The notes under the pieces were generated by a model. The model made no database searches, was not told where the DNA came from, and worked only from the letters and a program-made list of their open reading frames with translations. From a virus, in IMG/VR virus record IMGVR_UViG_3300031227_000032, positions 8,517 to 72,516 of that record: a DNA stretch of 64,000 nt; one strand, given 5' to 3'. Position numbers and translations under genes: made by a program. The first letter of the stretch is position 1; each line of letters opens with the position of its first letter. Positions 23,876-52,606 of this stretch are shown here, in pieces.

Positions 23876-26800
23876 CTAATCTGCGTACATGTACACTTTA
23901 ATCCAGTCTATATCTAGCTGTAATGTTATATCTTCCAACGCTACCTCACTCGCGCCTTGCGCCCACACGCCCGCGCGTAAGCACTCATTCCATCCGCCAA
24001 CGTCAGTACCGGCAGCGGCAAGCGTTGCGATGTACCAAACGCCATCGGACATACTGCCGAGTTGATCCGCAGACTTCGCGGTATTTGCGAGTACATCAGC
24101 AGTGGTAACGTCATTGACGACTAAGTACACGTTATCGAAGTTAGCCACGGTGTTTACTCTGATGCGCGCTTGCACGTATACGCGGCAGTTATCGTTGTTA
24201 TCACCCTGACGCCCGAACGGACTCCAGACGGCAACCTGTGATTGATTCGATTGTATGTAGTCAGGATCAGCGAATACTACGTTAGCCTGCCACGTCCAGC
24301 GGCCAAATGACGTTAAGCCGCCTTCGTTTGTAAAGTCAAATCCGCCCGTATTGCTGGCAGTTACGGTGCCAATCGCTACAGCGGTCGCGGGGTATTTCAA
24401 GCTGTCCCACGTTTTGCCGGTAGCGGCATTCTGCGCGGCCGTCCAGCCAGCGAAGTAATGCGGCGTGCGCTGCGTCAGGTCGTGGCGATTGGCGTCTGAG
24501 TCGATAGCGTATAGCCTGCCATCGTCACCGGCGATAGCGCGGACATAGCCAGCTTCCGGAGCATCGGATAGGGGGGTATTTGAGGACTCCCCCATATCAT
24601 GCCAATTGTCAGAAACAACACGCGGGAATTTGCCTTCATATGCTGCATTATCCGCCGAAGCGCAAACACCTTCAACTCCAATGGTTTCACCAGTTGCGCC
24701 AGTAGCTTGGCCCAACATCGCGCGCCCATCGTTAACAGTGCCGGTGTATTCGCCTACAATAGGCCCGGTGTCGCTACTTACCACTTCTATCCTATCATTC
24801 ACCGTGGCCGGTGTAAGCGCAGTGCCAATGCGTTGCCAGTAATTCACACCGAGCGGGCCTGTCTCAGTTCCGTCATCTTCCAGATAATACAGCCCATCTG
24901 CGAGTGCATAAACTCGCCAATCATCTGCCGCTGGATTGGCAGGGGTGCTGCCCAGTTCATCTAAGTCAGCCCACGTGCTTATCTTGACACTATCTATCGA
25001 CAATCCGTAACCAGGGCCGTCGCATCGTACTGATAGTGCGTTTTCGGTATCGGTTGCATCATCCTGTATGATCTCGACTACTGGCTTATCAGTTTCGGCG
25101 TCTACCAAGTCACGCTCGATACGCACCGTGTAGCCTTTTTCCGTGGCGCTATCGTTGCCGTTAATGTCCAACACTCCAGCGGGTGTGGCCGTGCTGATAC
25201 CGATGCGATCCTTTGACGCATCAGTGTAGATTAGGTTGATGTCGTTTTCACCCTCAACTCTAAAGTCAATGTCAACACCGTCTTCGTTGATAACTGCACG
25301 ATCAGGCCACAGGTCTAAGACACTTTTGAATGTGCTGTCAACCTGCATTTCGATACCAAGCCCACCGTCTTCCGAGCCTGCTATCACGTTTTCAGAATAC
25401 GCACGCAAACGCACGTAATCTGTCATGGCGGGCGTGGAGTTATTGCCGCTGAATAGTAGCTCGCCAAGTATGTCATTGTTCGCCTGTGTTGCGGAGTCAT
25501 GCTCAAAGGTGATCGTCGGGCCTGAAACATCAGCGCCAGTATACGTCAGCTTGAACATTTCATCATCGGTGGCGTTAGGAATCTCTACCGTATCATCGGC
25601 AGTTGCCGGCGAAAGCACAACGCCGTTACGTTGCCATAGGGACGCTACGTTGATTTGATCCCACACCGCAGCGGTGGCCGTATCGTCAACGCTCTTGTAG
25701 GCTATGTCAGTTGCTGTATCTACCCAAGTATCGCCAGTAAAGAATGTGCCGTTACCGCCCGTACCTACGTTATCATCGTTCGCATCCGGCGGTGAAGTAT
25801 CTGTATAGCGTTGTACCGCGTGTGTGTGATTGCCAACCTTTCGATTGCCAGCGTCTAACCCTGAAAGCTGCCCGTGATCGCTAGTGCTTACCTCTACACG
25901 GCTGATCGTTTCACTACGCCAATCAATGTAATCGTCGCCCTCATCAGTGCTGACAATCCGCGCGTTAATAGCAGACGCATATGCCGTATTGGTCTGGTAA
26001 ATCACCGTGGCAATAGGGCGAATCTCTGGCAGCAGAATATCATTAGTGACCAAGCTAAGCACTTCAGTTTTAGCACCCTCGCGCGCCGCTGGCTTGTTGC
26101 CATAGGTAGCCTGCCCCATCAGTGAGATCATGGGTTTATCTTTTTCAGTTGTGGCGAATACATGGTAAAGAACATACTTGCCACTGTCAGCTTCGGTAAG
26201 TTGCCATGCGCCGCCTGTGTACTCATTCCAAGCCAACCTGTCAGCGGATGTATTATCGAACGTCCGCGCGCTGAATCCAGCTACCACAGTCTGCCGTAAG
26301 TTGCCATCAGCGCCATCTAAATGATAGACTGGCAATCCAGTGGTACTCAATACTGCGCTGATAGGTAGATAAATATCCTCATCAGCGACAGCGCCAACGT
26401 CAACGCCGAACTGTGCATCGGCGGTTGCCCCGCCACCGTCAACGCTAAACGTATTCAGGCCAAGCCCGCTGAAGTATTGCAATCCTAAAGCGAAGTGTAA
26501 ATAGGCGTGAGTATCCGGCGACATGCGTTCGGCGTGCCGCTCCTCGCCTATGTAGTTTCCCTCCGGTGTTGACGCATCCCAGTAGATGAAACTCACCAAA
26601 GCATAGTTGCGGATCAGGTCGGAGATGTTCTCAACAGTAGGATTGGCAAGCGCAGTAAGCGTTGCGCCATCGTAGTAGATTGCATGCACGCCCTCGGTAT
26701 TATCAATCTGCACCGTGTCGCCAGTCGCCGTATATTTCACTCCAACTACCCAGTAGTTAAAGTCAGTGCCAGTCGGCTGGATGCTGAGCGTGCGATCAGG

Positions 26801-27160
26801 CCCGGTGTCCGTCCAGGTCAGGGTGCTGAGTGTGCGATCATCGAAGCCGTTCTGATTCCATTCAGGACGTGTGGGCCACAGGTCATCTACAGCTATCTCA
26901 ATATCCTGAGCAGCTTGCGTGAGCAGTACACCGTAACCCTCAGACAGCGTAACGTCGTCAACTAACGCAGTTTCGCCAGCCTTGGCAAGCGTGAAATAAT
27001 CACCGCCACTGCCGCCTGGTTGTGTGTCTGCATTCTGGAATCCAGCGGACGTGAAAGTCGCAGGTGATACCGGCGCATCATCACCCGATACTTGTTCGAT
27101 CAGGTCGATAATATCCGGCACATCATTCAGTGCTGGGCGTTTGATCTTTGGTTTAGACAT
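23876..27160 (-). CDS. Large tail fibre / receptor-binding protein
   Basis: 1094 aa, mosaic and beta-rich; RIGISTATP..LDI fibre motif; repeated WQR.G..L.PAT. Confidence 0.75.
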   Translation of the reverse strand: MSKPKIKRPALNDVPDIIDLIEQVSGDDAPVSPATFTSAGFQNADTQPGGSGGDYFTLAKAGETALVDDVTLSEGYGVLLTQAAQDIEIAVDDLWPTRPEWNQNGFDDRTLSTLTWTDTGPDRTLSIQPTGTDFNYWVVGVKYTATGDTVQIDNTEGVHAIYYDGATLTALANPTVENISDLIRNYALVSFIYWDASTPEGNYIGEERHAERMSPDTHAYLHFALGLQYFSGLGLNTFSVDGGGATADAQFGVDVGAVADEDIYLPISAVLSTTGLPVYHLDGADGNLRQTVVAGFSARTFDNTSADRLAWNEYTGGAWQLTEADSGKYVLYHVFATTEKDKPMISLMGQATYGNKPAAREGAKTEVLSLVTNDILLPEIRPIATVIYQTNTAYASAINARIVSTDEGDDYIDWRSETISRVEVSTSDHGQLSGLDAGNRKVGNHTHAVQRYTDTSPPDANDDNVGTGGNGTFFTGDTWVDTATDIAYKSVDDTATAAVWDQINVASLWQRNGVVLSPATADDTVEIPNATDDEMFKLTYTGADVSGPTITFEHDSATQANNDILGELLFSGNNSTPAMTDYVRLRAYSENVIAGSEDGGLGIEMQVDSTFKSVLDLWPDRAVINEDGVDIDFRVEGENDINLIYTDASKDRIGISTATPAGVLDINGNDSATEKGYTVRIERDLVDAETDKPVVEIIQDDATDTENALSVRCDGPGYGLSIDSVKISTWADLDELGSTPANPAADDWRVYALADGLYYLEDDGTETGPLGVNYWQRIGTALTPATVNDRIEVVSSDTGPIVGEYTGTVNDGRAMLGQATGATGETIGVEGVCASADNAAYEGKFPRVVSDNWHDMGESSNTPLSDAPEAGYVRAIAGDDGRLYAIDSDANRHDLTQRTPHYFAGWTAAQNAATGKTWDSLKYPATAVAIGTVTASNTGGFDFTNEGGLTSFGRWTWQANVVFADPDYIQSNQSQVAVWSPFGRQGDNNDNCRVYVQARIRVNTVANFDNVYLVVNDVTTADVLANTAKSADQLGSMSDGVWYIATLAAAGTDVGGWNECLRAGVWAQGASEVALEDITLQLDIDWIKVYMYAD

Positions 27161-29580
27161 TAGCTAATGTTACTCGCTGCATAGTTCAATACTGTATAGT
27201 CAATTGTCGTCGCTTCGCCGTCTACTGAGATTGTAAACTCGCGCATTACTCCGGTGTAATCCACACCGCCGCCGTCCTCATCAGTGGCAATCGTATCGCC
27301 AAGTTCAGGCTTTGAGGCTAGCACACCTGGATAACTGTAGCTATGCTGTTTATACAGGATCAGGCTTGACTCAAGATACGCACGCCCGATGGTCAACGCT
27401 GCCGCTTCGGATGCCGCGCCAATGTTGATATTGTGTACACGTTGCGCACCCGCTGATCCGTCGGCATTCACACCGCCGCGTAACTTCACATGCGCGTTCA
27501 CGTCATAGAGATACTGCGGCAATGTTTTGTTCAGTACATCATCCGTAGTCTGCACTAGAGCATACTTTGTGATGTTACCCATAATGCGAATGTTGTGGAT
27601 TGCCGCCCAGTACTTATGCCCGCTATCTACCGGCCCCGCCATGTATTCCCAGACCACACGTACTGCGTTTACTTGCGGTAATGCAAACTGTTTCAGATTA
27701 AGCTCTACAGTCTTGGCAGTACGCCCGATATTACCTTTGGCTGTACCCTGTAGCTTAGTGCCGAGATTCTGCCATGTGCCGGTGTGAGTTGCGTCATTAA
27801 AATCAGTGCAGCCATCTATGCGCAGTACGTAGGTTTCGTCTGTGTTGTGACGTGTGCGATCCTCAGTCGAACGATAAGCGTTTACCCGTAATACGATTTC
27901 GTCAAGGTCAACGGACGGCGAGCCCGCGCCAAACCAGTACATCGTATGCGGAAAATCAGCAGCGGGATCGTGGAATACTTCAGCGAGTAACTTACTATCT
28001 AGCTTACCATCAGTTGTAGCCGCCGCGCCGAATGCACTTGCACCTGCCGCCGTGCTGGTAGTATTCGTTCCCTTGCCGTAACCTTCCGCGCCCTCAGTGC
28101 AGTAATACCACGTATCAGGCTTCGCCCCCGCCGCCGCCGCGCCCTCATGCCACGCAAAAGTATGACTTGCAAGGTTAGGGTCTTGATCGTGCGTATACTC
28201 CACCCTCACCGCGCTGTATACATCGGCAATGCTGGTCTCTTGTTCTAGCCTATCCACTCCAGTGATAGTCTGATCTACAACGCCGTTAGCAATCTCCAGC
28301 AGGCGTAACTTACCCTCGCTGTGATTGTATACAAACTCGTATTCATCAGTCAAGCCGAGCGACGTAATCAGCCCTTGCGCAGCTAGCCATTGCGTCTTAG
28401 GGTTACGCTGCGGATTGTAGTCATAGCGCGTTATCCGTGTGACAAGTGCCATCGCTGTATATTCAGCAGACGGTGAGACGTAATCGAACTCATCGCCTAG
28501 ATCAGCGAGCACAAAGCCTGAACCGCCGTAAGCAAGCGGAGTCGTGACGATCAGCCGAATAATATCTGGCAGTGAGTAGACGGTCGATCCCGCGTCCAGC
28601 ACCTTGTCAGCATCATAGTAGTAACATGTCGTCGCATATGTAGCGCCCGCCTCAACGCCGCCTGCCATGACGAAACAACCGTAGCTGTAATGCGCCGTCC
28701 ATCGTTCGCCGTAGCGCATGGATATGTATGCAGTACCGCCCGCTGGGTCTTCGTAAACGATGGCAGGTTCAGGGCCGAGCCGTTTGCCGACCTTGCTTGT
28801 AACAGTCGCATTTGCCGCATGACCAGCCGCCGTCGTGCCAAGTGCCGCGCGTTCTTTCACGTTGACCTTGTATCTATCACTGCCGCCCGTCGGGTCATAG
28901 CCCTCATAATACATCCATTCAGTACCAATTTTCAGCCAGCCTTGCGGCGGGAATCCCTGATTAGTTGTTGTAAATTCAACGTCAAACGGTGCAGCCGTGC
29001 CTATCAGTATTTCGGCGTGGATTGTATCGCTTGCGCTATCGCCATCTTGCACATAACATTTCGCGCCCTCTGCGTCTGCCGGATCAGGCCATAGCGTATC
29101 AGTGTCAACATCGAACGAACCAAACTCGCCGCTGGATTGCAGCGGTAAATAACTAGGTGCGCTTTCACCGACTAGCACGGTGGACGTTGCCACACTCCAA
29201 CGCACGTTGCCCGCTGAGTCCGTCACAGCGGCGCGTGTAAGCCCTTGTTCGTTCCCGTCGCATTCCACTACTATATGGCGGGCCGGTGATCCGTCAGCGG
29301 CCTGTGATACTTCGTAGTATGGCTTGGCGGCCACAACGCCGCGAAACCAGAAGTCCGCGCCGTCCTTAACTACCACCTGCGAATGTAGCTGCAATGCGTT
29401 GGTATCAGTTGAGTCCAGGTTATACACGTTGGCAGCGTCAGTCTCGACTCGCAACGTGACGCCGGATATTTCACCGAACGATTGGTGAATCTCCAGACGC
29501 GCGACGGGCACGGTGGTTTCCGCACCGCCCGCACCGTTGTAATTTTTGACCGGATTGGAGAATGTTGCTAGTTTGCTCAT
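27160..29580 (-). CDS. Tail tip / baseplate hub protein
   Basis: 806 aa; position after the TMP and distal-tail-like gene; KPELGDTI C-terminal motif. Confidence 0.65.
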   Translation of the reverse strand: MSKLATFSNPVKNYNGAGGAETTVPVARLEIHQSFGEISGVTLRVETDAANVYNLDSTDTNALQLHSQVVVKDGADFWFRGVVAAKPYYEVSQAADGSPARHIVVECDGNEQGLTRAAVTDSAGNVRWSVATSTVLVGESAPSYLPLQSSGEFGSFDVDTDTLWPDPADAEGAKCYVQDGDSASDTIHAEILIGTAAPFDVEFTTTNQGFPPQGWLKIGTEWMYYEGYDPTGGSDRYKVNVKERAALGTTAAGHAANATVTSKVGKRLGPEPAIVYEDPAGGTAYISMRYGERWTAHYSYGCFVMAGGVEAGATYATTCYYYDADKVLDAGSTVYSLPDIIRLIVTTPLAYGGSGFVLADLGDEFDYVSPSAEYTAMALVTRITRYDYNPQRNPKTQWLAAQGLITSLGLTDEYEFVYNHSEGKLRLLEIANGVVDQTITGVDRLEQETSIADVYSAVRVEYTHDQDPNLASHTFAWHEGAAAAGAKPDTWYYCTEGAEGYGKGTNTTSTAAGASAFGAAATTDGKLDSKLLAEVFHDPAADFPHTMYWFGAGSPSVDLDEIVLRVNAYRSTEDRTRHNTDETYVLRIDGCTDFNDATHTGTWQNLGTKLQGTAKGNIGRTAKTVELNLKQFALPQVNAVRVVWEYMAGPVDSGHKYWAAIHNIRIMGNITKYALVQTTDDVLNKTLPQYLYDVNAHVKLRGGVNADGSAGAQRVHNINIGAASEAAALTIGRAYLESSLILYKQHSYSYPGVLASKPELGDTIATDEDGGGVDYTGVMREFTISVDGEATTIDYTVLNYAASNIS

Positions 29581-29586
29581 GGTGAC

Positions 29587-29615
29587 TTGACAATCTCCGC
29601 GTTATGTGTTACATT
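29587..29615 (+). promoter_or_regulatory. Moron promoter TTGACA-17-TACATT
   Basis: Hexamers with TGTG extension; antisense to the tail operon. Confidence 0.65.
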
Positions 29616-29631
29616 CTGATTGGAGGATATT

Positions 29632-30081
29632 ATGTACAAATACATTTTAGTGCTGGTAATCTTACTCGCCGTGAGTTGCGGCGGCGGTTCGCCTGTGAAT
29701 GATCCGCCCGATCCGCCAGTCAAAACGCTTGGCGGCGATTGGCTGCTGACTGCGCGCGGCGACGTGCCCGATAGCTGGCCGGAAGACGTGCAGATTTATA
29801 TGCATTCCGAGCCTGATAATAGATGGGGTCTGCTGACATTGCCGCCTGCTATCAGCGAAAGTCTGAATGACGATGTAATGGAGTTTCGTAAACGCAGCCA
29901 TCCGGTTATCGCCAACACACAGGTATACAATTCTGATCGTATATTTTCCGCCTACGATGATCCGCACCTGTATGGTCAGTGGACGTTTATCAAGTCAGGC
30001 AACGGCGACTACCTCACGCTGAAGTTCCCCGACGGCGACGGCGGCGCGGTAGTGGTAGTGTATGACGCGGTGAAACAGTGA
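29632..30081 (+). CDS. Lipoprotein (moron)
   Basis: MYKYILVLVILLAVS-C-GGG lipobox; GGAGG RBS. Confidence 0.75.
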   Translation: MYKYILVLVILLAVSCGGGSPVNDPPDPPVKTLGGDWLLTARGDVPDSWPEDVQIYMHSEPDNRWGLLTLPPAISESLNDDVMEFRKRSHPVIANTQVYNSDRIFSAYDDPHLYGQWTFIKSGNGDYLTLKFPDGDGGAVVVVYDAVKQ

Positions 30082-30284
30082 TGGAATACAAGGCACATTT
30101 CACAGGCAAGGGTGATACCGCGCTCTATATTGAGGGTCAATCTGACGATCCGGAACTAGGCCCAGATGTATATGTCGGGCTAGGCCATAGCGGGGACTCG
30201 TTCACGCCCGCACAGGCTCGCATCATTGCCGCCGCTATGATTGCTGCCGCCGACGCTGCAGATGACGCGGTGAAACAGTGATGG
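30062..30284. repeat. 23-bp direct repeat ATGACGCGGTGAAACAGTGATGG at 30062 and 30262
   Basis: Exact match; flanks gene 30081..30281. Confidence 0.9.
30081..30281 (+). CDS. Small hypothetical protein
   Basis: FTPAQARIIAAAMIAAADAA motif; coupled ORF. Confidence 0.7.
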   Translation: MEYKAHFTGKGDTALYIEGQSDDPELGPDVYVGLGHSGDSFTPAQARIIAAAMIAAADAADDAVKQ

Positions 30285-30565
30285 CAACTGATAACACAAG
30301 TCATAAGATGATCCCGCTATCTGTATTCACCCGCACGCTGGCGCGGCTGGATGCGATAAAGCGCGGCACTGAGTTCATGCACTGCCCCAAATGTAAGGGT
30401 CTCGGCGGATGGAATGGCCCGTTGGCGGACGGTGATTTCAAATTCAATAAATGCGCCTATTGCAATGATAGCGGCATCGTTGTTAGGCCAGATGAGGTAG
30501 CGTTTGATTGGTGCGCAGAGATAATCCGTGAGGAAATTGAACGATGCCCAGATGCAACGCGGTGA
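30281..30565 (+). CDS. Zn-finger protein (DnaJ-like CxxCxGxG)
   Basis: CPKCKGLG...CAYCNDSG. Confidence 0.65.
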   Translation: MATDNTSHKMIPLSVFTRTLARLDAIKRGTEFMHCPKCKGLGGWNGPLADGDFKFNKCAYCNDSGIVVRPDEVAFDWCAEIIREEIERCPDATR

Positions 30566-30593
30566 GATTGTAGCGCGATTTTCTGGAAACAGC

Positions 30594-30622
30594 TTGACAT
30601 TGCTGAAAGGTCGTGGTATACT
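30594..30622 (+). promoter_or_regulatory. Promoter TTGACA-17-TATACT with CAGTTAGCAA leader
   Basis: Member of the cassette family. Confidence 0.85.
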
Positions 30623-30653
30623 ATGACCAGTTAGCAACTTTGGAGGAAACGAA

Positions 30654-30944
30654 ATGCACCCGAATCAGAAATGCGAAGATCAAATTACAGCAAAGGTAGA
30701 TCGCTTCTGGCAGGATCGCGCCCTGGATATGTTTCGCACCCTCACCAGCAGAAACGGCGATGTACCGGCCTACGGTGATAACATGCGAATCTCGGCGAAC
30801 TGGCCGCAGCGTGGCAGCATCAGCTTTGATCTGCACCCCGAAGAACACCGCGTCTACCTGCGGATGAATAAGAAAGGGTTTCACATCACGCATAAGGCGA
30901 TCAAGTCAGCCAAAGCGAACCGTGCCAAGCTAAAGGTTGCATAG
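30654..30944 (+). CDS. Hypothetical protein (cassette cargo)
   Basis: GGAGG RBS; own promoter and terminator. Confidence 0.75.
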   Translation: MHPNQKCEDQITAKVDRFWQDRALDMFRTLTSRNGDVPAYGDNMRISANWPQRGSISFDLHPEEHRVYLRMNKKGFHITHKAIKSAKANRAKLKVA

Positions 30945-30971
30945 CTAACAAATCCCCAACCGTCGCAGACC

Positions 30972-30994
30972 GCCCCGATTCGTCGGGGCTTTTT
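30972..30994 (+). terminator. Intrinsic terminator
   Basis: GCCCCGA-TTCG-TCGGGGC-TTTTT. Confidence 0.85.
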
Positions 30995-30996
30995 CT

Positions 30997-31857
30997 TTAG
31001 CTCAGTATCGCGGTAGACGACTGTATATCGAATGCCAGCTCATAGCCGTTGCCAAGTTTCATCTTTGACGGCGACTCAACATCGCCTGGAATACTCGCTA
31101 GCCATCCGGTGTAATCCTTGAAGTATGCGTCTATATCCAGGTCGGGAACCGTACTCACTGCTAAATCTTCGATGTACAGCGTGGATTGATTCTCCCACCA
31201 ATACCACAGCAATGATAGGTTAGGCTGGCCTTGCGGCGTGGATTGATTATCGCCCGTAGCTCTCGTCTGACACCGCACGCTTAACGCCGTTACTCCGGTG
31301 TTGACAATATCACGCTTTCGCAACGTGCCGCCAGTATCTTTGTACTGACGATTCGATGCAAGTGTAGGCTTCACGTCAAGGCGATTCTGCAGCGTCATGT
31401 TACGCAGCCAGTTTAGAAACTTGCCGGTAGTGGTATAGCTTGCGATGGTGAGCTTGATCCAATACGCATCTGTGCCGTCAATGGTATCCTTGCCCCACGC
31501 CGACGCGCCGGGTGGATTCTGCACCGCAACGTAGCCGTCCGCCGTGAATCCATTAGTGGAATCATGAAACGGATTGCTACCATTGAATGCAGTCCAACCG
31601 GCAGCGCCGTTACTATACGCCCATGTGATAGCCCCCACCACAGGCGCTGTATCCCCCACGCGGTAGCCAAAGGTGCCCGGTATGGCATCCCAGCCTAGAT
31701 ACATAATATCGCTATCAGCAGACCACAGCGCATTACCAGCGCCCGTCAGGTCGTTTACATCGCTATCATAATCGTCAGCAACCGAGCCGCCCGAATCGCG
31801 TCTGCAGTATTCGGGGTAATCGTCAGTTTGCGTAATGCGTACTTCTTTACGTGACAT
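30997..31857 (-). CDS. Putative distal tail protein
   Basis: Position immediately after the TMP. Confidence 0.55.
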   Translation of the reverse strand: MSRKEVRITQTDDYPEYCRRDSGGSVADDYDSDVNDLTGAGNALWSADSDIMYLGWDAIPGTFGYRVGDTAPVVGAITWAYSNGAAGWTAFNGSNPFHDSTNGFTADGYVAVQNPPGASAWGKDTIDGTDAYWIKLTIASYTTTGKFLNWLRNMTLQNRLDVKPTLASNRQYKDTGGTLRKRDIVNTGVTALSVRCQTRATGDNQSTPQGQPNLSLLWYWWENQSTLYIEDLAVSTVPDLDIDAYFKDYTGWLASIPGDVESPSKMKLGNGYELAFDIQSSTAILS

Positions 31858-34800
31858 TTAATAACCCGTCGTGCGCATTTGCCCACGTAGTGTATTGCCG
31901 CGCGATACTTGCTGTAACCGTTGCGCTTTCGTGACGTTCAGCATTTCTGACAGCAGCCGTTCGCGTTCATTGTTAGTATCGAATACATAGATCGGATTGC
32001 TGGTAGACTCGCCACGGTTTTTCTTGCCGCCGAATAGTCCGCCGAATAGTGCTGATATTCCAGCGCCCAGGAATCCGCCGATGACAGGCCCGAAGCCGCC
32101 CATGCTACCAAAGCTGGACGTGATAGCCTGTGTGAGTGGCTGTACAATCGCGTCCGCCACGCCTGACCAATCGTTAGTGCTTACCGCTGTGAATAGTGCA
32201 TCGCCTAGCTGCGCGGTGAATAGCGTAGCCGTCTGCTGTGCTTGCTGTGCGATTTGCTCAGTAGCTCCACCAGTAGCGCCCAGACCGGACGCATCAGCCG
32301 TGCCTCAACCGCCAGGGCCGCAAGCCGCATTACTTTCGCCGTATGTAGGATCATACCCACCGGCCATAATGCCGATACCGCGCATCTCCAAGCCGAGTGC
32401 TGCAGCCCCAACGCCCATGTGTGATTGTTGAGCAACAGCGCCTAGTGCCCGTCCGCCAATGTCAGCAGGGGTGTTACGAATCCAACCTGCGCTATCACTA
32501 CCACCCGACTGGGCGGCCACATCAGCGGCTAGACTTAACGCATCATTAACTGTCCGCTTGGCCGTTGCCAGTGAGCCTATTAATGATCGCTCGATAGCAT
32601 CAGTAACCGCCATAATCGAAGCCACTGATGCGGTCTGCATTGCAGTAAACGCACTGACCATTTCAGTATGCAGATCAGTAACGCGCTGTAAGACACGTGG
32701 CACGGATTCATCTACAGTGTCATAAATCCCTTTCCACATGTCAGGCCAGATTGAATGGCCTACAATGAGATCCCACGCCCATTGAAATGGAGCCACTACG
32801 TTCTTTGCGAATGTCTCGATCTCTTTAACGACCTTGCCTACAAATTCAGTTACGGTAGCCCATATGCCATCCCACAAGCCAACCCAGAACTCCGTTATAT
32901 CAGTATTGACGTTTTCGAACCATTCAGTAATATCATCAATGAAGCCAGATATAAACTCGCCAGTATTAGCAGCAATTGTATCAGCAGTATCGGCGATAGT
33001 TTGCCATGCTCCCGACCAATCGCCAGTAATCAATTTCAGCCCAACCTCGAAGATACCACCGACAATAGCAAGCGCGTTTTTAACAACAAGTTTGATCGCA
33101 TTCCATACGGTTGAAATGACAAGCTTAATGCTTTCCCACACAATGCTAACAGCGGCCATGAACGGCGGCCCCCACTTATCCCATATGATCTTGATAGCAT
33201 CCAACGTAACGCTAAATGCTTCTTTAATCAGTGGCCAGTTTTTCATCCACCAATCAATGATCGGCTGTACTAACTCCAGCGCCTCAGCGCCAAGCCAACC
33301 GAATACCTCACCGGCTTTATCCCTTATGGCAGTGAGTGTCGGACTGATTTTATCCTTGACTTCCTGAATCTTTTCTGCGAACGCGCTAGCCTTTTGTTCA
33401 CCCTCAGTCAACGGCCCGACGAATCCGTCAGCAGGTGCTTTGCCTGTCAACGCATCCCATGCTGCGCGAACTGTTTCAATCCTTTCGGCCAGAACTTGCG
33501 CGCTAACCTCCGCCTCACTCAATGGCCCGATAAATCCCGACTGAATCTTATCCGGCCCCTGCCCAGTCAATGCCAGCCATGCCGCCTTGACAACATCCAT
33601 AGCCTGTGCTATCTGCGGGAAGTTGCTGTCAGCAAATGATTTAATCTTACCCCAGTTGGCGATGATCAACGCACCGCCCGCCACAATAGCAGCTACAGCA
33701 ATCCCGATAGGGCCAGTCATGGCGGTAAATGCAACACCAATACCTGGCGCGGCAGCTACTATGTTCCCAATGATCATCAGCAACGGGCCAAGTGAAGCTA
33801 CCACTCCGGCGGCAATCACTCCGAAATTCAATAATACTGGATTGGTTTTTGCCAGATTTTGCACGAACGGTATTGCGGCTTCAACTAATGAGACAAAGCC
33901 GTCAAGCAGTCCGCTGTCTGAGATTGACAAGCCTAAGCCCTGCACTGCTGAACTGAGTCGCGTCAATACCGGCGTTACTTCTGTAGCGATCCGCGCAGCC
34001 GTGCCAGCCGAGGCCAGGTTCGCCTCAGATAGTCTTTCTAGTGCCGCGCTGCCCTGATTCACCAATGCGGCCATAGCTGGCCCTGCACGCTGTCCAAAAA
34101 TAGTCATAAGCTCAGCGGTTCTTTCCACTTCGCCCATGCCTTCCAATCCCTCTTCAAACTGCGCGATGATATCAACAAGCGGCAGCATAGCACCATCCGC
34201 ACCTTCAATACTAACTTTGAGTTTCTTAAGGGATGCAGTGGCCTTTGCGCCTGGATTGATCAGTAGCGATATAGCGGTCTTGAGTGACGTACCCGCCATG
34301 CTTCCCTGAATACCAGCGTTACCTAACAGACCAACAGCGGCAGCGACCTCTTCAAACACAAGCCCAGATGATGATGCAATCGGGCCTACGAACTTCATTG
34401 ATTCGCCAAGCATCCGCAGATCAACATTGGCGCTAGTGAATGTGTTAGTCATTACATCCGCTACGCGCGTCATTTCAGTGGCCTCAAGGCCGAAACCAGT
34501 CAGGATGTTAGACGCAATATCGGCAGTAGTCGCTAGATCAATCTGACCAGCGGCGGCAGCGTTCAACACACCGGGCAACGCGCCGATAATATCCACAGCC
34601 TTGAAGCCCGCCATTGCGAGGAAGCTCTGTGCATCAGCGGCTTGCTTGGCTGTAAACGCCGTGGTCTCGCCAAGCATTTTGGACTGCTTACGTAGCTTCG
34701 CAAACTCTTCAGCGGTGGCACCTGACAATGCACGCACGCGATTCATCGAGTTCTGAAAGTCAATGCCGAGCTTAATGATCGCAGCGCCGACGCCGACGAT

Positions 34801-34986
34801 AGGCAACGTCAAGCCCATCGTCATTTTTCTGCCGACGCCCGCCATCTGACTGCCCGTCTTTTTCCACGCGGCGGCTGTCTTTTGCGCAGCAGTGACGCCC
34901 TTTTTACCAGCGTCAGTCAGCGGCTTGCTGAGCTTGTCTTTCAGCTCTAGTACAACCTCTAAGATTTTCTGATCAGTGTTTGCCAT
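31858..34986 (-). CDS. Tape measure protein (TP901-like core) with in-frame UGA at 32305-32307 (893 aa if stopped, 1042 aa if read through)
   Basis: FTAKQAADA..FLAMAG, GIQGSMAGTSL, W/F periodic repeats; the frame stays open past UGA into a typical Gly-rich TMP C-terminus (GFLGAGISALFGGLFGGKK). Confidence 0.9.
32276..32307 (-). promoter_or_regulatory. UGA plus SECIS-like hairpin in the TMP gene
   Basis: TGA-12 nt-GCGTCC-GGTCT-GGGCGC. Confidence 0.7.
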
Positions 34987-35706
34987 TCTTTTTACTGCTC
35001 GCCTTTTCTTTAGCCGCGTCAAGCTCGGCTATTTTTCTGTCAATCACGCCCATCGCAGATATGTACCAAACAGGTTGATCCTCAAGCCCGCCTGCACGGA
35101 ATGAGAATCCATTTTTGTAATGAGCATATAGCCCATTCAAGTAAACGCTCAGTTCGGATACATCTTTCCACGGGCAGTGGGTAGCATAGATAGGCTCTAT
35201 GCAATCCCCCACCCGTCGCTCGTCAATCTGCAGCATCCCATCTGTACAACCTACTCTACAGTTAGCTTCGTCAAAGTTGCATCCGGAACATCGGTCTCCG
35301 ATTCCGTGCTGGAGTTTGATGTAAAATTTACATCGGCAGTTTCCTCCTTATTCAGCCCGCCGATAGCCTCACTGACTGTAAGTGCGATATTCGTAATCAA
35401 CTCCAGCGGAAGGCGCTTCATTGATGCCTTGTCAATAACATCCTCACGCTCCCCGCAAACCTTGACCTTCTCGAACGTCGGTTTGAAATCCTCACCGTCG
35501 TCTTGCAATCCTTCGATGTCAGTCAACATCAACTTAACCAGCATGTAATTCAGCTCGCCGCCGTTCACTTCGCCGTGCTTATCAGTGACATTGCCGATCA
35601 GCCAGAATTGCATACGGTTATCAATGTCGCGGATTTGGTAGCGCACACTATCATCGCATTCAGCGGTGAACCATCCACCGGTTACTTTTGGGGACAATAC
35701 TTGCAT
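34973..35706 (-). CDS. Tail assembly chaperone pair (gpG 35251..35706; gpGT by -1 frameshift to 34973)
   Basis: A-AAT-TTT slippery site at 35323-35329; the -1 frame is open into ORF 34973..35236. Confidence 0.85.
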
Positions 35707-42145: not shown

Positions 42146-42408
42146 CGCAGACTGCTCTCAGTGATGTTCATTTCCTTTGCGAACTCCAATATATCCGTCG
42201 TGATGTTCCCCGCCTCATCTGTGCAATTGTTAGCAACGGCGGTTCGCAAGTCACCCTCAAGCCGATTCAGCCGCGCCTCGCCGTCATTAACCCATTGCGT
42301 TGTTTCGTCAATGCCAGGGACATTGCCAGCCCACTCAATCATACCACGTTTATCATCAATGGTGGCATGCATAGATGCGATATAACGCTCAATTAAATTA
42401 TTATCCAT
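42142..42408 (-). CDS. Hypothetical protein, leaderless moron
   Basis: Promoter 42415..42443 TTGACA-17-TATGAT, ATG 6 nt later. Confidence 0.7.
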   Translation of the reverse strand: MDNNLIERYIASMHATIDDKRGMIEWAGNVPGIDETTQWVNDGEARLNRLEGDLRTAVANNCTDEAGNITTDILEFAKEMNITESSLR

Positions 42409-42447
42409 ACCACCATCATACCACACTACCGAGCATTTGTCAACCCC

Positions 42448-43242
42448 TCATCGCGCATCCTGTTTCCATGCCGCGCGTTTCGCGCAGGTATCCAGTGCAT
42501 CAGCTTGGGCAATGTTCGCCGCCCCGATCTTGTCAACCTGCGCCGCCGCCTCGTTTGCTGTATCATGCACTGAGAATGTAAGCCCATATCCGCCGTGCCA
42601 AACAAGTTCATACCAAATGGCGCGGTAACGGGTTTCGTCTAATGCGTTCGTCTCGGCGATGATCTCTGGCAGTATGCGTAGGAAACGCTGATGGTCAGGC
42701 ATTTTAGTATATGGCGTCTCACTGTAATAATCAATATCATTGGCGTGGCTTACCTGATCAATGTGTTCGGCATGTTCGAGCGCCGCCAGCATGCTTTCAA
42801 ATCCTAACCTTTTGATAACCGCCTTTTTCCAGTCCCAGCAACTGCCGCCATCAGTGAAACCTCAACCGCCAGATGATGATGATGTTCCTTTCTGCACACC
42901 TCCCCAATAAATATCATATTGATCGCCGTCTTTGATTATCCATGCTGGCTTATGCAAATCACTCAATGCGCATTTAGCAACATATGTGGTACGTTGTGTA
43001 TTGCATAATGAATATCGGATAGCGTATATTGGGAGCGCACATAATACCAATATACACAGGGCCATAATGACTATACATATCGTTGATCCCACACAGGCGA
43101 CTTCAGACATCTCATGCCCATCTGCCGCAGATTGGGTAATGTATGCGTATTGTGGCCCTGCCACTTCATCACACGAACAAGTTAGCGTAACTATCAGCAA
43201 TATACTGATTAACGCAACTGCAAATTGCAAATGTTTGTTCAT
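42448..43242 (-). CDS. Membrane/lipoprotein moron with in-frame UGA at 42862-42864 (joins ORFs 42862.. and 42448..)
   Basis: Leaderless promoter 43249..43277; frame open across SSGG*GFTDGGSCWDW...ESMLAALEH. Confidence 0.6.
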
Positions 43243-50362: not shown

Positions 50363-51250
50363 TTAAGTTTTCGGGCGTAATTGTTTATCACCTGGTAGCA
50401 TCGGTGACAATCCGCAACGGCATTGAATGTCAAACGCAGCCTTGCCGCTCAGCATCGGCCCTTCGATGAAACCGACCTGATTGAATGTATCAAACAGCCC
50501 GTCCGCATCCGTCACGGCTCCGTCCATGACGATGTGACTGTACATGTCTTTGCCACCGCCACGTACTAAGCTATCGCGTGCCGTTAGCCACTCTGAACGT
50601 ATCACAACATCCAAGTATTCGGCGGACTGTTTGTAACCTTCAAGCTCTGCTTTAATGTCCGCACGTCCGACTTCGGTTCTAGCAATAGCGTTGCTACGCG
50701 GTTGTGTGATCGCATCAGTCTTGCCTGACCATTCGGCGTATTTCTCACTGATTGCTTTCGATGTAACCTTGAAGCCCTGATCTGCAGTATCAGCGATGAT
50801 GACCTCTAACTTTGCCGCGCTGGTTTTGTCAATCAGGTTAGAGCGTATATGTAAATTCTCAGTAAGCCACTTCCGGAAGTCAGGGCGATCAGGTGCGAAC
50901 GCCGGTAGCTTTTCCGCTGCCAGTACTGCAACCTCATCGACTGCCAACTGCCCGAACTCAGCTACTAACTCAGCTTGCAATGGGCCAATGATCGCAGCAT
51001 ACGCGGCATTTTCCACTTCAGGATTCAGCAACGGCTTAGGCTTATCAGCGCGTGTCTGTGCGGTCTTGAGTACCCGCGCCTCCTGACCTACCCAGTATTT
51101 TTCAATGCCCGCCTTGTAGCGTTCCTGCCACGGCTCGCGTATCTTATCCTGATCGGCTAATCGCTCCTCACGATCAGCCAGCGTTGGATACTTACTGCTG
51201 GGGAATGTAGGCTCATCGCCTATATCGTCATCGACCCGATGACTTGGCAC
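50363..51250 (-). CDS. MuF/SPP1 gp7-like minor head domain, in frame with the portal across one UGA
   Basis: RSNAIARTEV, EWLTARD..VR...H..MDG, IQCRC. Confidence 0.88.
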   Translation of the reverse strand: MPSHRVDDDIGDEPTFPSSKYPTLADREERLADQDKIREPWQERYKAGIEKYWVGQEARVLKTAQTRADKPKPLLNPEVENAAYAAIIGPLQAELVAEFGQLAVDEVAVLAAEKLPAFAPDRPDFRKWLTENLHIRSNLIDKTSAAKLEVIIADTADQGFKVTSKAISEKYAEWSGKTDAITQPRSNAIARTEVGRADIKAELEGYKQSAEYLDVVIRSEWLTARDSLVRGGGKDMYSHIVMDGAVTDADGLFDTFNQVGFIEGPMLSGKAAFDIQCRCGLSPMLPGDKQLRPKT

Positions 51251-51256
51251 GCCTCA
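51227..51256 (-). promoter_or_regulatory. UGA plus SECIS-like hairpin at the portal/MuF junction
   Basis: TGA-10 nt-GTCATCG-GGT-CGATGAC. Confidence 0.65.
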
Positions 51257-52606
51257 TCCGCAGGTTTCCAGATACGAACGCATAGCGCGCGCCGCCTCTT
51301 TTGTTTCATTCTCTTCGGTATCGACTCCGATCTCCTCTGGCTGGAGTTGTTTCAATGTATCTGGCAGTCTGATATACGGCTTGTTCAACGGGTTATCCGG
51401 ATCGTCAGGCTCGATCATTTCAAGCCCGCTGGCTTCGCGCTTTTCGTTCGGGGTCATCCAATCGCTGTTAGCAAGGTTGTGCACTCGTTCCGTTACGTTA
51501 TCCTGCAGCGCGTTGATTCCGCTTACAATCGGTAACAGCTTTACATCATCTTCAAGCCCCATCTTAGGTAACACAAACTCTGCAAACTCCTCGCGGAATA
51601 AGCGATGCAATGGCAATACTGTATTCTCATAGAGGAATCGTTCAGCGGACTCGACATTGTTATACGTTGATGATTTGTCATCGCCGACTAACTGTGACGG
51701 CACGCCCAGCGCCGCGCAGATATGCCGCATTGTCACACCAGCGCCGCTAGTCCAGTCCATCTCTTTCGGGCTATGCGCGAGTGCCATATAGTTAGACTTC
51801 TCGCCGTCAATGAAAGCCGTCGCGCCTGCGTTAGATGCACCGCTGAACTTATCGTTGTAATCCTGCTCAATGCGTGCGCGCACTTGCGGAGTCAGTGAAC
51901 TCCAACCCGTAATCTGCAACACACCGCCTGGTACTGCACTATTAGTAAGTAGCTTAGAGTTCCAAGCTAGCTGTAGGTTGCTGGTATCAATGTCCGTCGC
52001 TGCAGCATTCAATGGTGATAATCCAAACATCGGATGCGCAGGATCGGTGAACTTCACGTTATACATTTCGTCAGGCGTCAGATAGCGTTTATTGCCAATG
52101 CCTGTTTCGATAACGTACCGACTGACTGTGCGATTATCTGTGGTTTCAATCGTCACGCGGTCAGGCAATTCGAGATACATTTCAGGTGCGGTCTTGGGTT
52201 GCGTCTTGCCATTAGTCGTGCGCTTGCCAATGCCGATACCTTCGATGTATGTGATACCGGCAAGGTGAAGCTGATTAGACCACAGCGCGATGAACTCGTG
52301 ATAGCCTTGATTCGGATTGAAGCGCTGCACTAAGTTGTACAACGGCTTGACGCGCGGGGCTATATCATCCTGCGTTACAATCTCGCCCTCATACTCGATG
52401 CCGATTGGTACTGCGCAAAGGCCGTTGCCGATTACCCGCAAGCAGGCATATACAATCGGATTGTGCCGATACGCCTCTTTGTAAAACTCATTGAATCGGC
52501 GCGCGCGAAACTCAGCACTGACACCGTTAGTATCCTGAATCGTCAGAACCTTAGCGCGCAACATCGACCGTAGTATGAAGTTTTGGAATCGTTGTTTAAG
52601 GTTCAT
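51254..52606 (-). CDS. Portal protein (HK97 family)
   Basis: NPIVYAC, FNP, GLSPL.AA, ICAALGVP..LVG, STYNN, MTPNEKRE..GL. Confidence 0.94.
   Translation of the reverse strand: MNLKQRFQNFILRSMLRAKVLTIQDTNGVSAEFRARRFNEFYKEAYRHNPIVYACLRVIGNGLCAVPIGIEYEGEIVTQDDIAPRVKPLYNLVQRFNPNQGYHEFIALWSNQLHLAGITYIEGIGIGKRTTNGKTQPKTAPEMYLELPDRVTIETTDNRTVSRYVIETGIGNKRYLTPDEMYNVKFTDPAHPMFGLSPLNAAATDIDTSNLQLAWNSKLLTNSAVPGGVLQITGWSSLTPQVRARIEQDYNDKFSGASNAGATAFIDGEKSNYMALAHSPKEMDWTSGAGVTMRHICAALGVPSQLVGDDKSSTYNNVESAERFLYENTVLPLHRLFREEFAEFVLPKMGLEDDVKLLPIVSGINALQDNVTERVHNLANSDWMTPNEKREASGLEMIEPDDPDNPLNKPYIRLPDTLKQLQPEEIGVDTEENETKEAARAMRSYLETCG

What the first reader, a model, noticed from the sequence alone, without database searches (positions are those of the whole stretch)
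31858..32340. Tape measure protein has an in-frame UGA with an fdhF-like SECIS
Seen: ...AACGPGG*GTADASGLGATGG... continues 148 codons past the UGA into a typical TMP C-terminus, with no good independent start. After the UGA comes GGCACGGCTGAT-GCGTCC-GGTCT-GGGCGC. As I recall the E. coli fdhF SECIS (UGA CACGGCCCATC GGTTGC AGGTCT GCACC), GGTCTG lies at the same +19..+24 offset in both. Inference: a CxxxxU motif in the TMP could form a selenenylsulfide. The TMP C-terminus normally engages the tail tip, so tail assembly may depend on recoding.
Basis: partly seen in the sequence, partly recalled or inferred. Interest (0 to 1): 0.9.

Follow-up and report, generated by a model that had tools for sequence, protein, structure and literature searches.

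The report
Recoded UGA in phage tape measure
A group of uncultured phages keeps an internal UGA "stop" inside the gene for the protein that sets tail length, followed by a small RNA hairpin like those that direct selenocysteine insertion, so the full protein probably needs that stop to be read as an amino acid, most likely selenocysteine.

Summary
The tape measure (TMP) gene lies on the minus strand (ATG 34986). It has one in-frame TGA (32307-32305) after ...AACGPGG, then 148 open codons to a TAA that abuts the next gene.

It is neither an error nor a private mutation:
- Assemblies of two other samples keep the TGA.
- Five other phage lineages with DNA in hand carry in-frame TGA(s) at the same linker. 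That makes 8 sites in 6 lineages, all TGA. Two of the sites were fished with a pattern that already contained TGA.
- The 148-codon part is a conserved C-terminal domain. In 10 relatives it is fused to the TMP without a stop.

Cys sits 5 residues before the TGA at 6 of 8 sites. Several stop-free relatives have C-x4-C in the same linker.

Seven of 8 sites are followed by a hairpin of at least 5 bp with GG in the loop at +19..+23. In the window this is G22-G23-U24, as in E. coli fdhF, which I fetched and checked. This hairpin evidence is weaker than it looks: a synonymous-recoding null gives only p = 0.018.

Best reading: programmed UGA recoding (about 0.85), most likely selenocysteine (about 0.5). 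Rivals are near-cognate readthrough, reinitiation and a stop-hop.

The host is unknown and there are no protein data. This scan has noted candidate phage selenoproteins on other DNA before. I found no paper describing this.

The parts
32308..34986 (-). Tape measure gene, part before the UGA (893 codons, ATG 34986)
   Evidence: PF10145 6e-47; phrog_1533 1.2e-99. It is identical to the called protein P0002.
32320..32322 (-). Cys codon (TGC) five residues before the UGA: C-G-P-G-G-UGA
   Evidence: Cys is at -5 at 6 of 8 sites in 6 lineages. C-x4-C occurs in the stop-free relatives P0018, P0027 and P0020, and internally in P0004 and P0023.
32308..32310 (-). GGT (Gly) codon directly 5' of the UGA
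   Evidence: GGT precedes the TGA at 7 of 8 sites; it is used at 7 of the 7 sites where the preceding codon is Gly. GGT makes up only 10-32% of the Gly codons of those genes, giving P = 3e-5.
32305..32307 (-). In-frame UGA, the candidate recoded (selenocysteine) codon 894 of a 1042-codon gene
   Evidence: It is kept in the X1, X2 and X3 contigs. Homologous in-frame TGAs are present in L002, L060, L067, L108 and L110.
32276..32292 (-). SECIS-like hairpin: stem GCGUCC/GGGCGC at +16..+21 / +27..+32, loop GGUCU at +22..+26 (U of UGA = 1)
   Evidence: G22-G23-U24-C25-U26-G27 is identical in position to E. coli fdhF.
31861..32304 (-). 148 codons after the UGA: Gly-rich linker plus the conserved TMP C-terminal domain
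   Evidence: The HMMER search finds the domain fused at the C-terminus of long TMPs and as short called ORFs (alignments). All 6 listed X3 substitutions are synonymous here. The AF2 model is all-helical with pLDDT 69.
32017..32091 (-). Hydrophobic glycine-zipper-like segment (GGFGPVIGGFLGAGISALFGGLFGG) followed by KKNRGE...P-I-Y
   Evidence: This is the most conserved block of alignment A2. A membrane-active role is inference only.
32158..32160 (-). First canonical start (GTG) after the UGA, 48 codons downstream; start of the called 100-aa ORF P0003
   Evidence: It lies inside the conserved DWSGVAD motif, so it would truncate the domain.
31855..31860 (-). TAA of the TMP frame, abutting the ATG of the next tail gene (TAAATG)
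   Evidence: L002 has the same arrangement.

Best explanation
The tape measure gene is one 1042-codon gene. Its codon 894, UGA, is recoded during translation. Ribosomes that terminate make an 893-aa protein without the C-terminal domain. Ribosomes that decode the UGA make the full TMP with its conserved 148-aa C-terminal part.

The most likely decoder is the host's selenocysteine system: SelB with Sec-tRNA, recruited by the hairpin that starts 16 nt from the U of UGA and shows G23/U24 in its loop. This would give a C-x4-U motif where stop-free relatives have C-x4-C.

Shown: the conserved in-frame UGA, the conserved domain behind it, the nucleotide context GGU-UGA-G, and the hairpin.
Inferred: that the UGA is decoded at all, that the residue is Sec, and what the Cys/Sec pair does (a redox or metal site near the tail tip is a guess).

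My odds: recoding of some kind about 0.85; Sec specifically about 0.5.
For: 1. Not an error or a private mutation. The TGA is in contigs of X1 (possible source), X2 and a diverged X3 strain.

2. The frame behind it appears to be under coding constraint. Six of 6 listed X3 substitutions are third-position synonymous in this frame, and 3 of them lie before any canonical start.

3. Conservation across lineages. There are 8 in-frame stops in 6 lineages, all TGA, each followed in frame by the same domain:
- window;
- L002, 2 sites;
- L067 group and L060, 2 sites in L060;
- L108 and L110.
L002, L060 site 1, L108 and L110 were found without using the stop in the query. Five further TMP cluster representatives end at the same motif at protein level (P0004, P0007, P0010, P0017, P0023).

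4. The domain belongs to the TMP. It is fused without a stop in 10 relatives.

5. In L002 the stretch between its two TGAs (…EYYHPNTA…) matches a stretch of P0004 (…EYYHPGTA…) that is translated there after an intact Cys.

6. Cys is at -5 at 6 of 8 sites. C-x4-C is in P0018, P0027, P0020, P0004 and P0023.

7. Hairpin. Seven of 8 sites have a stem of at least 5 bp closing a 3-6-nt loop with GG at +19..+23. The same holds for 936 of 18839 positions in the same genes (binomial p = 6e-9) and 66 of 2706 TGA trinucleotides in the window. The stems differ in sequence between lineages. True SECIS controls behave alike: G001 selD has 7 bp from +14 with loop GGC, and E. coli fdhF has G22-G23-U24.

8. 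No tRNA (suppressor or Sec) in any held phage DNA, so decoding must be done by the host.

9. The metagenome-assembled genome (MAG) that holds L002 uses Sec. It has selA, SelB, and selD and fdhA each with an in-frame TGA.
Against: 1. With the peptide held fixed and codons redrawn, the hairpins are only mildly unusual: per-site p from 0.04 to 1.0, Fisher p = 0.018. The MFE version gives p = 0.31 on 6 sites. The Gly/Ala-rich linker alone therefore explains much of the signal.

2. The criterion was fixed after I had seen the hairpins. Four of 23 ordinary terminal TGAs in the window also pass it.

3. The 63-nt fold is no more stable than shuffles (z = +0.51).

4. L060 site 1 has no GG-loop hairpin. 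L002 site 2 has no upstream Cys, and L002 site 1 has Cys at -7.

5. With X at the stop, MAFFT pairs the window's Cys, not the stop, with the second Cys of P0018. The Sec/Cys pairing therefore holds at motif level only.

6. Four of 8 fused relatives from the search have no Cys in the linker.

7. The strong GGU-UGA-G context is not a known SECIS requirement (recalled) and hints at another mechanism.

8. The host of the window phage is unknown.

9. L002's contig is a whole phage contig without host flanks, so its link to a Sec-using MAG is weak. No tRNA-Sec was found in that MAG.

10. No expression or protein data.
Confidence: 0.5

Rival explanations
1. Programmed leaky termination. The UGA is read at low frequency by a near-cognate host tRNA (Trp as in Qbeta A1, or Cys, Arg or Gly). 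This fixes a ratio of short to full-length TMP, or keeps the membrane-active C-domain scarce. The hairpin and the GGU-UGA-G context weaken RF2 termination.
For: All 8 sites are UGA, which is the leakiest stop (recalled). GGU precedes 7 of 8 sites and a G follows 7 of 8; P = 3e-5 for GGT among Gly codons. This context is unexplained by SECIS rules, and a 3' purine favours tRNA over release factor (recalled). Sites without a Cys partner exist: L002 site 2 and the ends of P0007 and P0023. The synonymous null for the hairpin is weak. A TMP is needed in only a few copies per virion (established knowledge), so low efficiency is tolerable.
Against: It does not explain why Cys is kept exactly 5 residues upstream at 6 of 8 sites while stop-free relatives have C-x4-C. 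Two UGAs in one gene (L002, L060) would multiply two low efficiencies. The hairpin position and the GG(U) loop match real SECIS elements.
Confidence: 0.27
2. Two proteins. The TMP ends at the UGA, and the C-terminal domain is made separately by termination-reinitiation or an unusual start. In this reading the family is simply split in some phages and fused in others.
For: Fifteen short C-domain-only proteins are called in public data. In L002 an ATG with a G-rich stretch before it follows site 2 by 10 codons. UGAGG contains a GAGG Shine-Dalgarno core.
Against: The window has no canonical start for 48 codons, and the first one cuts the conserved DWSGVAD motif. In all 6 lineages the domain is in the TMP frame, with nothing but TGA between. 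Three of the X3 synonymous changes lie before any start. The segment between the TGAs of L002 is homologous to translated sequence of P0004. The one short protein whose DNA I could see (P0005) proved to lie behind in-frame TGAs.
Confidence: 0.1
3. Stop-hop. Peptidyl-tRNA-Gly leaves GGU at the hungry UGA and re-pairs on the next GGN codon (a +6 hop), as in the low-level hops described for E. coli. The product then lacks one residue.
For: GGU is the codon before the stop at 7 of 8 sites. GGN follows the stop at 6 of 8 sites. L002 site 1 reads ACU UGA GGG ACC.
Against: L060 site 1 (GGU UGA GUC) and L110 (GGU UGA CGC) have no landing codon after the stop. GGG is not cognate for a GGY-reading tRNA. 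A long hop to the loop GGU is unlikely because all 8 gaps keep the triplet frame. The model ignores the conserved Cys.
Confidence: 0.05
4. Defect or artefact: a sequencing or assembly error, or a nonsense mutation (TGY to TGA) in a dead or dying phage.
For: TGA is one change away from a Cys codon. Only contigs, not raw reads, could be laid.
Against: The same TGA is in assemblies of three samples from 2017-2019, including a diverged strain. In-frame TGA occurs at the homologous spot in five other lineages. Only synonymous changes are seen downstream.
Confidence: 0.03
5. Alternative genetic code: host and phage read every UGA as Gly or Trp (NCBI tables 25 or 4).
For: A Gly would fit the Gly-rich context (GPGG-G-GT).
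Against: Twenty-four of 73 crude ORFs end in TGA, and 17 of the 23 other terminal TGAs overlap the next start as ATGA or GTGA. Only this gene, and possibly portal-MuF, has an internal TGA between long open stretches. No suppressor tRNA is present.
Confidence: 0.02

Closest known systems
Bacterial selenoprotein genes with an in-ORF SECIS read by SelB (prototype E. coli fdhF codon 140)
   Same: An in-frame UGA is followed at about 11-13 nt by a short hairpin with G-G-U in the apical loop. The window has G22-G23-U24-C25-U26-G27 exactly as fdhF does. Relatives carry Cys in the same motif. A real SECIS of another organism (G001 selD) has the same geometry as the L067, L060 and L108 hairpins.
   Different: The protein is a phage virion protein, not a redox enzyme. 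The window hairpin has no bulged U17 (the role of that bulge in fdhF is recalled). Up to two UGAs occur per gene. A GGU-UGA-G context is conserved that the three real Sec sites I read lack: GUC UGA C, GGC UGA G and AUA UGA C. Rfam's SECIS models do not match, but they also miss the G001 selD SECIS.
Qbeta A1 (readthrough) protein: leaky UGA read as Trp, a minor virion protein needed for infection (recalled)
   Same: A phage structural gene is extended past a UGA, giving a short and a long product with a common N-terminus.
   Different: Qbeta is an RNA phage, and no SECIS-like hairpin or Cys partner is described for it (recalled). Here the part after the stop is a domain that other relatives carry fused.
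gpG/gpGT -1 frameshift of tail assembly chaperones next to the TMP gene (Atkins et al. 2016, PMC5009743; I read the passages around 'tape measure')
   Same: Translational recoding in the tail module that can set a fixed ratio of two products. The window also has a candidate A_AAT_TTT site in the gene upstream of the TMP.
   Different: That is a frameshift in the chaperone gene, not stop-codon decoding in the TMP itself. Those passages say nothing about a stop inside a TMP gene.
T4 gene 60 bypass and short stop-hops in E. coli (recalled)
   Same: A Gly take-off codon sits directly before a stop, with a nearby hairpin and a matching Gly codon downstream at several sites.
   Different: Two of 8 sites have no landing codon, and all gaps keep the triplet frame.
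Stop-codon reassignment in late genes of gut phages (Borges et al., recalled; also named in note e1-5747880 listed)
   Same: A stop codon inside structural genes of uncultured phages.
   Different: Those phages carry many recoded stops per genome and often their own suppressor tRNA. Here there are one or two sites, TGA remains the normal stop, and there is no tRNA.

Membership tests
Phage tail length tape measure protein (PF10145 / TP901 family) | N-terminal PhageMin_Tail domain in a long, mostly helical protein of the tail module | tested here: met
   PF10145 6e-47 over residues 97-296. phrog_1533 1.2e-99 and 35 further PHROG families, most annotated as tape measure. The gene lies downstream of the capsid, protease, portal and terminase genes.
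Bacterial selenoprotein gene (Sec-UGA plus SECIS) | In-frame UGA conserved among orthologues | tested here: met
   Eight sites in 6 lineages, all TGA. Five of the 7 non-window sites were found with queries that did not contain the stop.
Bacterial selenoprotein gene (Sec-UGA plus SECIS) | Homologues with Cys at the position of the UGA | tested here: inconclusive
   At motif level, C-x4-UGA (6 of 8 sites) stands against C-x4-C in P0018, P0027, P0020, P0004 and P0023. At residue level the alignment depends on the letter put at the stop: C gives Cys, while X pairs the upstream Cys instead. Four of 8 fused relatives from the search have no Cys there.
Bacterial selenoprotein gene (Sec-UGA plus SECIS) | Hairpin just 3' of the UGA with G (GU) in the apical loop at a fixed distance | tested here: met
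   Seven of 8 sites meet it, against a 5.0% same-gene background. The window matches fdhF at G22-U26. Caveats: the criterion is post hoc, the synonymous null gives p = 0.018, and 4 of 23 ordinary TGA stops also pass.
Bacterial selenoprotein gene (Sec-UGA plus SECIS) | The host has selA, selB, selC and selD | not testable with these tools
   The host of the window phage is unknown. The MAG holding L002 has selA, SelB and Sec-type selD and fdhA, but no tRNA-Sec was detected. L002's contig is a free phage contig.
Bacterial selenoprotein gene (Sec-UGA plus SECIS) | Selenium in the protein (75Se labelling or mass spectrometry) | not testable with these tools
   No protein data. No RNA run was listed either.
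Short stop-hop / T4 gene 60-type bypass | Matching take-off and landing codons flanking the stop | tested here: not met
   GGU then GGN at 5 of 8 sites, and ACU then ACC one codon further at L002 site 1. No landing codon at L060 site 1 (GUC) or L110 (CGC).
Genome-wide UGA reassignment (NCBI tables 4 and 25) | UGA not used as a terminator; many in-frame UGAs | tested here: not met
   Twenty-four of 73 ORFs end in TGA, and 17 of the 23 other terminal TGAs overlap a start.

The most novel reading that the evidence does not exclude
A clade of uncultured siphophages builds selenocysteine into its tape measure protein, with one or two C-x4-U motifs in the linker before the tail-tip/membrane domain. 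It does so by borrowing the host's SelB through SECIS hairpins inside the gene. This would be a virion selenoprotein, and it would make tail assembly or DNA injection depend on the host's selenium status. The same phage may also do this in its portal-MuF gene.
Probability: 0.45. Interest if true: 0.85.

Novelty: new variant of a known kind. Interest (0 to 1): 0.8.

Why it matters
If the UGA is decoded, gene callers systematically truncate this TMP family. In public data it appears as a TMP that ends in ...CGPGG plus an orphan "hypothetical" ORF of about 100-200 aa.

If the residue is selenocysteine, this would be a selenoprotein inside a phage particle. Phage production would then be tied to the host's Sec machinery and selenium supply. 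I found that described in no paper across five full-text searches.

If instead it is leaky termination, it would be a Qbeta-like readthrough in a dsDNA phage tail gene, with a conserved GGU-UGA-G signal. That would also be new.

Either way the site is compact (about 40 nt) and easy to test in a reporter.

Tried and rejected
Searches for relatives that found nothing or little:
- Megablast of the TMP region and tblastn of the C-domain against 50,697 phage records: no match.
- The search for related loci with the C-terminal 300 aa and with alignment A3 in viral contigs: no relative.
- Alignment A4 in metagenome contigs: 128 pattern matches, none confirmed.
- The [HN]DWSGVAD DNA pattern in viral contigs: 8 loci, of which 3 were already known and 5 unrelated.
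- Alignment A5 in viral contigs: the 3 known loci plus L107, an unrelated TMP without the domain.
- The A5 scan of metagenome contigs also returned L111 and L112. These are N-terminal fragments too short to reach the site.
- The search for homologous proteins on residues 740-1040 found only the window's own protein.
- The 'longer' search with A2 gave 2 weak Gly-rich hits.
- Among the best 120 TMP homologues by the N-domain, only 3 end in the motif (the window's own protein, P0007, P0042) and 2 carry the domain. The trait belongs to a narrow clade.

RNA tests that gave little:
- Rfam found no SECIS at any phage site. This carries no weight: Rfam finds the fdhF-type elements (87 bits on E. coli, 25 bits on G001 fdhA) but misses the genuine G001 selD SECIS.
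- The fold of 63 nt after the UGA is not more stable than shuffles.
- The MFE of +10..+42 ranks only in the top 5-10% of same-gene windows at 4 of 6 sites (Fisher p = 0.018).

Other points:
- No RNA holder was listed among the sequencing runs. X4 does not cover the TGA.
- The six synonymous X3 changes are equally synonymous in one antisense frame, the shadow ORF 31997-32431. I take that ORF to be a shadow because it straddles sequence that certainly codes for the TMP.
- Named TMP relatives (Symbiobacterium, Heliorestis, actinomycetes) match only the common N-domain and give no host.
- The AF2 model of the C-domain is helical with pLDDT 69. I ran no fold search on it.
- CCGCAACU occurs at +8..+15 in both L002 site 1 and G001 fdhA. 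I noted it but did not pursue it.
- Supplements of papers were not opened.
- The DNA behind P0004, P0007, P0010, P0017, P0023 and 14 short proteins could not be seen, so their stop codons are unknown.
Full report
WHAT IS THERE. The window is bases 8517-72516 of a 72.5-kb IMG/VR virus record, estimated 67% complete. Capsid, prohead protease, portal and terminase genes lie upstream on the minus strand.

The tape measure gene runs on the minus strand from ATG 34986. It has PF10145 at 6e-47 and phrog_1533 at 1.2e-99. After 893 codons it reads ...AAT GCG GCT TGC GGC CCT GGC GGT TGA GGC ACG..., with the TGA at 32307-32305. The same frame stays open for 148 more codons, to a TAA (31860-31858) that touches the ATG of the next gene. 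The first ATG, GTG or TTG after the TGA is GTG 32160, 48 codons on.

NOT AN ERROR, NOT ANOTHER CODE, NOT A PRIVATE MUTATION.
- TGA ends 24 of 73 crude ORFs of the window. Of the 23 other terminal TGAs, 17 overlap the next start as ATGA or GTGA.
- There is no tRNA gene in the whole record.
- Logan contigs of four salt-lake runs were laid on 31600-33200. X1 may be the source; it matches with no difference. X2, from another sample and year, covers 32220-33200 with no difference. X3 carries a variant strain: its contig over 32180-32421 has 5 differences, none listed at the TGA. X4 does not cover the site.
- The six substitutions listed for X3 are all third-position and synonymous in the TMP frame. 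Three of them (codons 13, 21 and 31 after the TGA) lie before any canonical start.
- Those six changes are also synonymous in one antisense frame. That frame is the usual shadow ORF and spans sequence that certainly codes for the TMP.

THE 148 CODONS ARE A REAL, CONSERVED TMP DOMAIN. I ran an exhaustive HMMER search with the last 400 residues, putting C at the stop. It gave 82 hits at E of 1e-3 or better. The part after the stop matches two kinds of protein:
- the C-terminus of long TMPs without any stop: 8 cluster representatives (P0018, P0020, P0021, P0027, P0036, P0043, P0052, P0083), plus P0087 and P0190;
- 15 short called proteins of 87-225 aa.

The domain has a DWSGV motif, a hydrophobic Gly-rich stretch, then a KKKRGD...P-I-Y-x-x-D-V-N...LLNxTK block. 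The AF2 model is helical with pLDDT 69. No Pfam or PHROG family covers it.

THE STOP IS CONSERVED. Besides the window's own protein, seven long TMP hits end exactly at the same kind of motif...ECGPGG (P0017)...GGCGPGG (P0042)...LCGPQG (P0050)...ESCPGGT (P0010)...SCGAGGG (P0004)...LGMGGG (P0007) and ...GGAGG (P0023).

1. P0005, one of the short proteins, lies on a 56.7-kb contig of a Dissulfurispiraceae MAG (L002). It sits in the frame of a 924-codon TMP ORF and is separated from it by two TGAs...SACDEATGT*GTATPSGGG... and ...PGAGGG*GDAAAGG.... The stretch between them contains ...EYYHPNTA.... P0004 has ...EYYHPGTA... as ordinary translated sequence after an intact C-x4-C.

2. A pattern scan of IMG/VR for the window's motif found 75 loci. 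Four of them have the domain behind the TGA.
- L015, L053 and L067 are one phage species (the TMP is P0042): ...GGCGPGG*GVPSPQDEG.
- L060 is a closer relative with two TGAs...PCVGDG*VKGQPS... and ...DECGPGG*GTDSAAGGG.

3. A search with the conserved TMP N-terminus, which is blind to the stop, found two more in metagenomes: L108 (...GAGCGSGG*GGGSPPGGG) and L110, whose TMP is P0050 (...LCGPQG*RQVEVG).

Altogether there are 8 sites in 6 lineages. All are TGA, and all are followed in frame by the domain. L067 and L060 site 2 were selected with a pattern that contained CGPGG-TGA-GG, so they are not independent for those letters. The other five non-window sites are.

SIGNALS AROUND THE UGA.
- Cys lies 5 residues upstream at 6 of 8 sites. 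It is at -7 at L002 site 1 and absent at L002 site 2.
- Stop-free relatives have C-x4-C in the same linker: CTDGSC (P0018), CTDSQC (P0027), CSSGTC (P0020). CETGSC and CGDNGC occur internally in P0004 and P0023.
- The residue-level alignment is unsafe. With C at the stop it aligns to Cys. With X, MAFFT shifts by one Cys. Four of the 8 fused relatives from the search have no Cys there.
- The codon before the UGA is GGT at 7 of 8 sites, although GGT makes up only 10-32% of the Gly codons of these genes (P = 3e-5). All 8 sites have U at -1, and 7 of 8 have G at +4.
- Seven of 8 sites are followed by a stem of at least 5 bp whose 3-6-nt loop has GG at +19..+23. The hairpins are listed below.

Hairpins (stem length, start relative to the U of UGA, loop):
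- window: 6 bp from +16, loop GGUCU;
- L067: 7 bp from +14, loop GGA;
- L060 site 2: 7 bp from +15, loop GGU;
- L108: 7 bp from +14, loop AGGU;
- L110: 5 bp from +16, loop GGACA;
- L002 sites 1 and 2: 5 bp each;
- L060 site 1: only a 5-bp stem with loop GUU, which fails the criterion.

The stems differ in sequence and encode different peptides.

Background rates for this hairpin criterion:
- 936 of 18839 positions in the same genes (5.0%; binomial p = 6e-9);
- 66 of 2706 TGA trinucleotides in the window;
- 4 of 23 ordinary terminal TGAs, where Shine-Dalgarno sequences of the next gene supply the GG.

COMPARISON WITH REAL SECIS ELEMENTS. E. coli K-12 fdhF, fetched as L100, reads UGA CAC GGC CCA UCG GUU GCA GGU CUG CAC C. 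G22-G23-U24-C25-U26-G27 stand at the same positions as in the window, and in both they form the loop.

The MAG that holds L002 has selA (609 bits), SelB, a selD with an in-frame TGA and an fdhA with an in-frame TGA. Its selD SECIS is a 7-bp stem from +14 with loop GGC. That is the same geometry as L067, L060 site 2 and L108.

WHAT WEAKENS THE SEC READING.
- I fixed the hairpin criterion after seeing the hairpins.
- When the peptide is kept and synonymous codons are redrawn from the gene's own usage, the observed stems are only modestly unusual: per-site p from 0.04 to 1.0, Fisher p = 0.018. The MFE version gives 0.31 on six sites. Gly/Ala-rich coding sequence makes such hairpins easily. Alternatively, selection for the hairpin has shaped the peptide; the two cannot be separated here.
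- GGU-UGA-G is not seen at the three real Sec sites I read: GUC UGA C, GGC UGA G and AUA UGA C.
- L002's contig has terminase, portal and DnaB genes and no host flank. It is a binned phage contig, so its host link is weak. No tRNA-Sec was detected in that MAG; the best hit, 46.1 bits, is a tRNA-Ser.
- The host of the window phage is unknown.

MECHANISM. That the UGA must be decoded to make a working TMP follows from three things: the fused relatives, the same-frame arrangement in all six lineages, and the missing start in the window. I put this at about 0.85.

Selenocysteine is the best single explanation, at about 0.5, because only it accounts for the conserved Cys at -5 together with C-x4-C relatives and a hairpin of SECIS geometry.

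The rivals and my odds:
- near-cognate readthrough tuned by GGU-UGA-G and the hairpin: 0.27;
- separate translation of the domain: 0.10;
- a +6 stop-hop from GGU to GGN: 0.05;
- a defect: 0.03;
- another genetic code: 0.02.

What the Cys/Sec pair does (a cross-link or a metal site near the tail tip) is a guess.

LITERATURE AND EARLIER NOTES. Five full-text searches found no paper on a stop or Sec codon in a TMP, or on a phage-encoded virion selenoprotein. For all papers other than the two below I saw only the search listings.
- PMC5009743: I read the passages around 'tape measure'. They deal only with the gpG/gpGT frameshift.
- PMC6145125: I read the passage found. It reports a predicted tRNA-Sec gene in Basilisk-like Bacillus phages.

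This scan's own notes list candidate phage selenoproteins in other genomes, in a hub, a MuF protein and small late genes. They also list a second first-reader note on this same site. These are unchecked AI notes and I did not use them as evidence.

Noticed in passing
window 50363-52606 (-); TGA 51254-51256; hairpin 51227-51243: Possible second recoding site in the same phage. The portal ORF (450 aa, PF04860 1.6e-49) and a MuF-like ORF (296 aa, weak PF04233) are in one frame, separated by a single TGA (...SYLETCG*GVPSHRV). A perfect 7-bp hairpin GUCAUCG-GGU-CGAUGAC follows at +14..+30. In 3 of 3 relatives, portal-MuF is one ORF without a stop (706, 759 and 768 aa). The TGA lies in an insertion of about 12 aa private to this phage. 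A GTG one codon after the TGA could instead restart translation. TGAGGCGTGCC is shared with the L067 TMP site.
   Followed up: partly
window 35323-35329 (-), within ORF 35251-35706: Candidate -1 frameshift heptamer A_AAT_TTT in the gene just upstream of the TMP. The -1 frame is open from there for about 118 codons, to the stop at 34973, inside the start of the TMP gene. This fits the usual gpG/gpGT tail chaperone pair. No family hit for either ORF.
   Followed up: partly
window 42400-42450 (-): After the TGA of ORF 42448-42792 comes TTGACA-N17-TATGAT, a perfect sigma-70-type promoter, in the middle of the structural gene block.
   Followed up: no
L002 5816-5823 and L097 1619-1626: The 8-mer CCGCAACU stands at +8..+15 after the UGA both at L002 TMP site 1 and in the fdhA selenoprotein gene of the MAG that holds L002. 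This may be chance, or a trace of SECIS mimicry of that host.
   Followed up: no
window 23876-31857 (-): The large tail genes downstream of the TMP (286, 806 and 1094 aa) and most other structural genes have no significant PHROG hit (one marginal match, E 0.0004, for the 1094-aa protein). The 286-aa gene and two upstream neighbours also have no Pfam hit; the 806- and 1094-aa genes were not scanned against Pfam. The phage has no megablast or tblastn match among 50,697 deposited phage genomes for the TMP region.
   Followed up: no
window 31997-32431 (+): A 144-codon antisense shadow ORF spans the UGA site. Its third codon positions coincide with those of the TMP frame, so the strain differences are synonymous in both frames.
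   Followed up: yes
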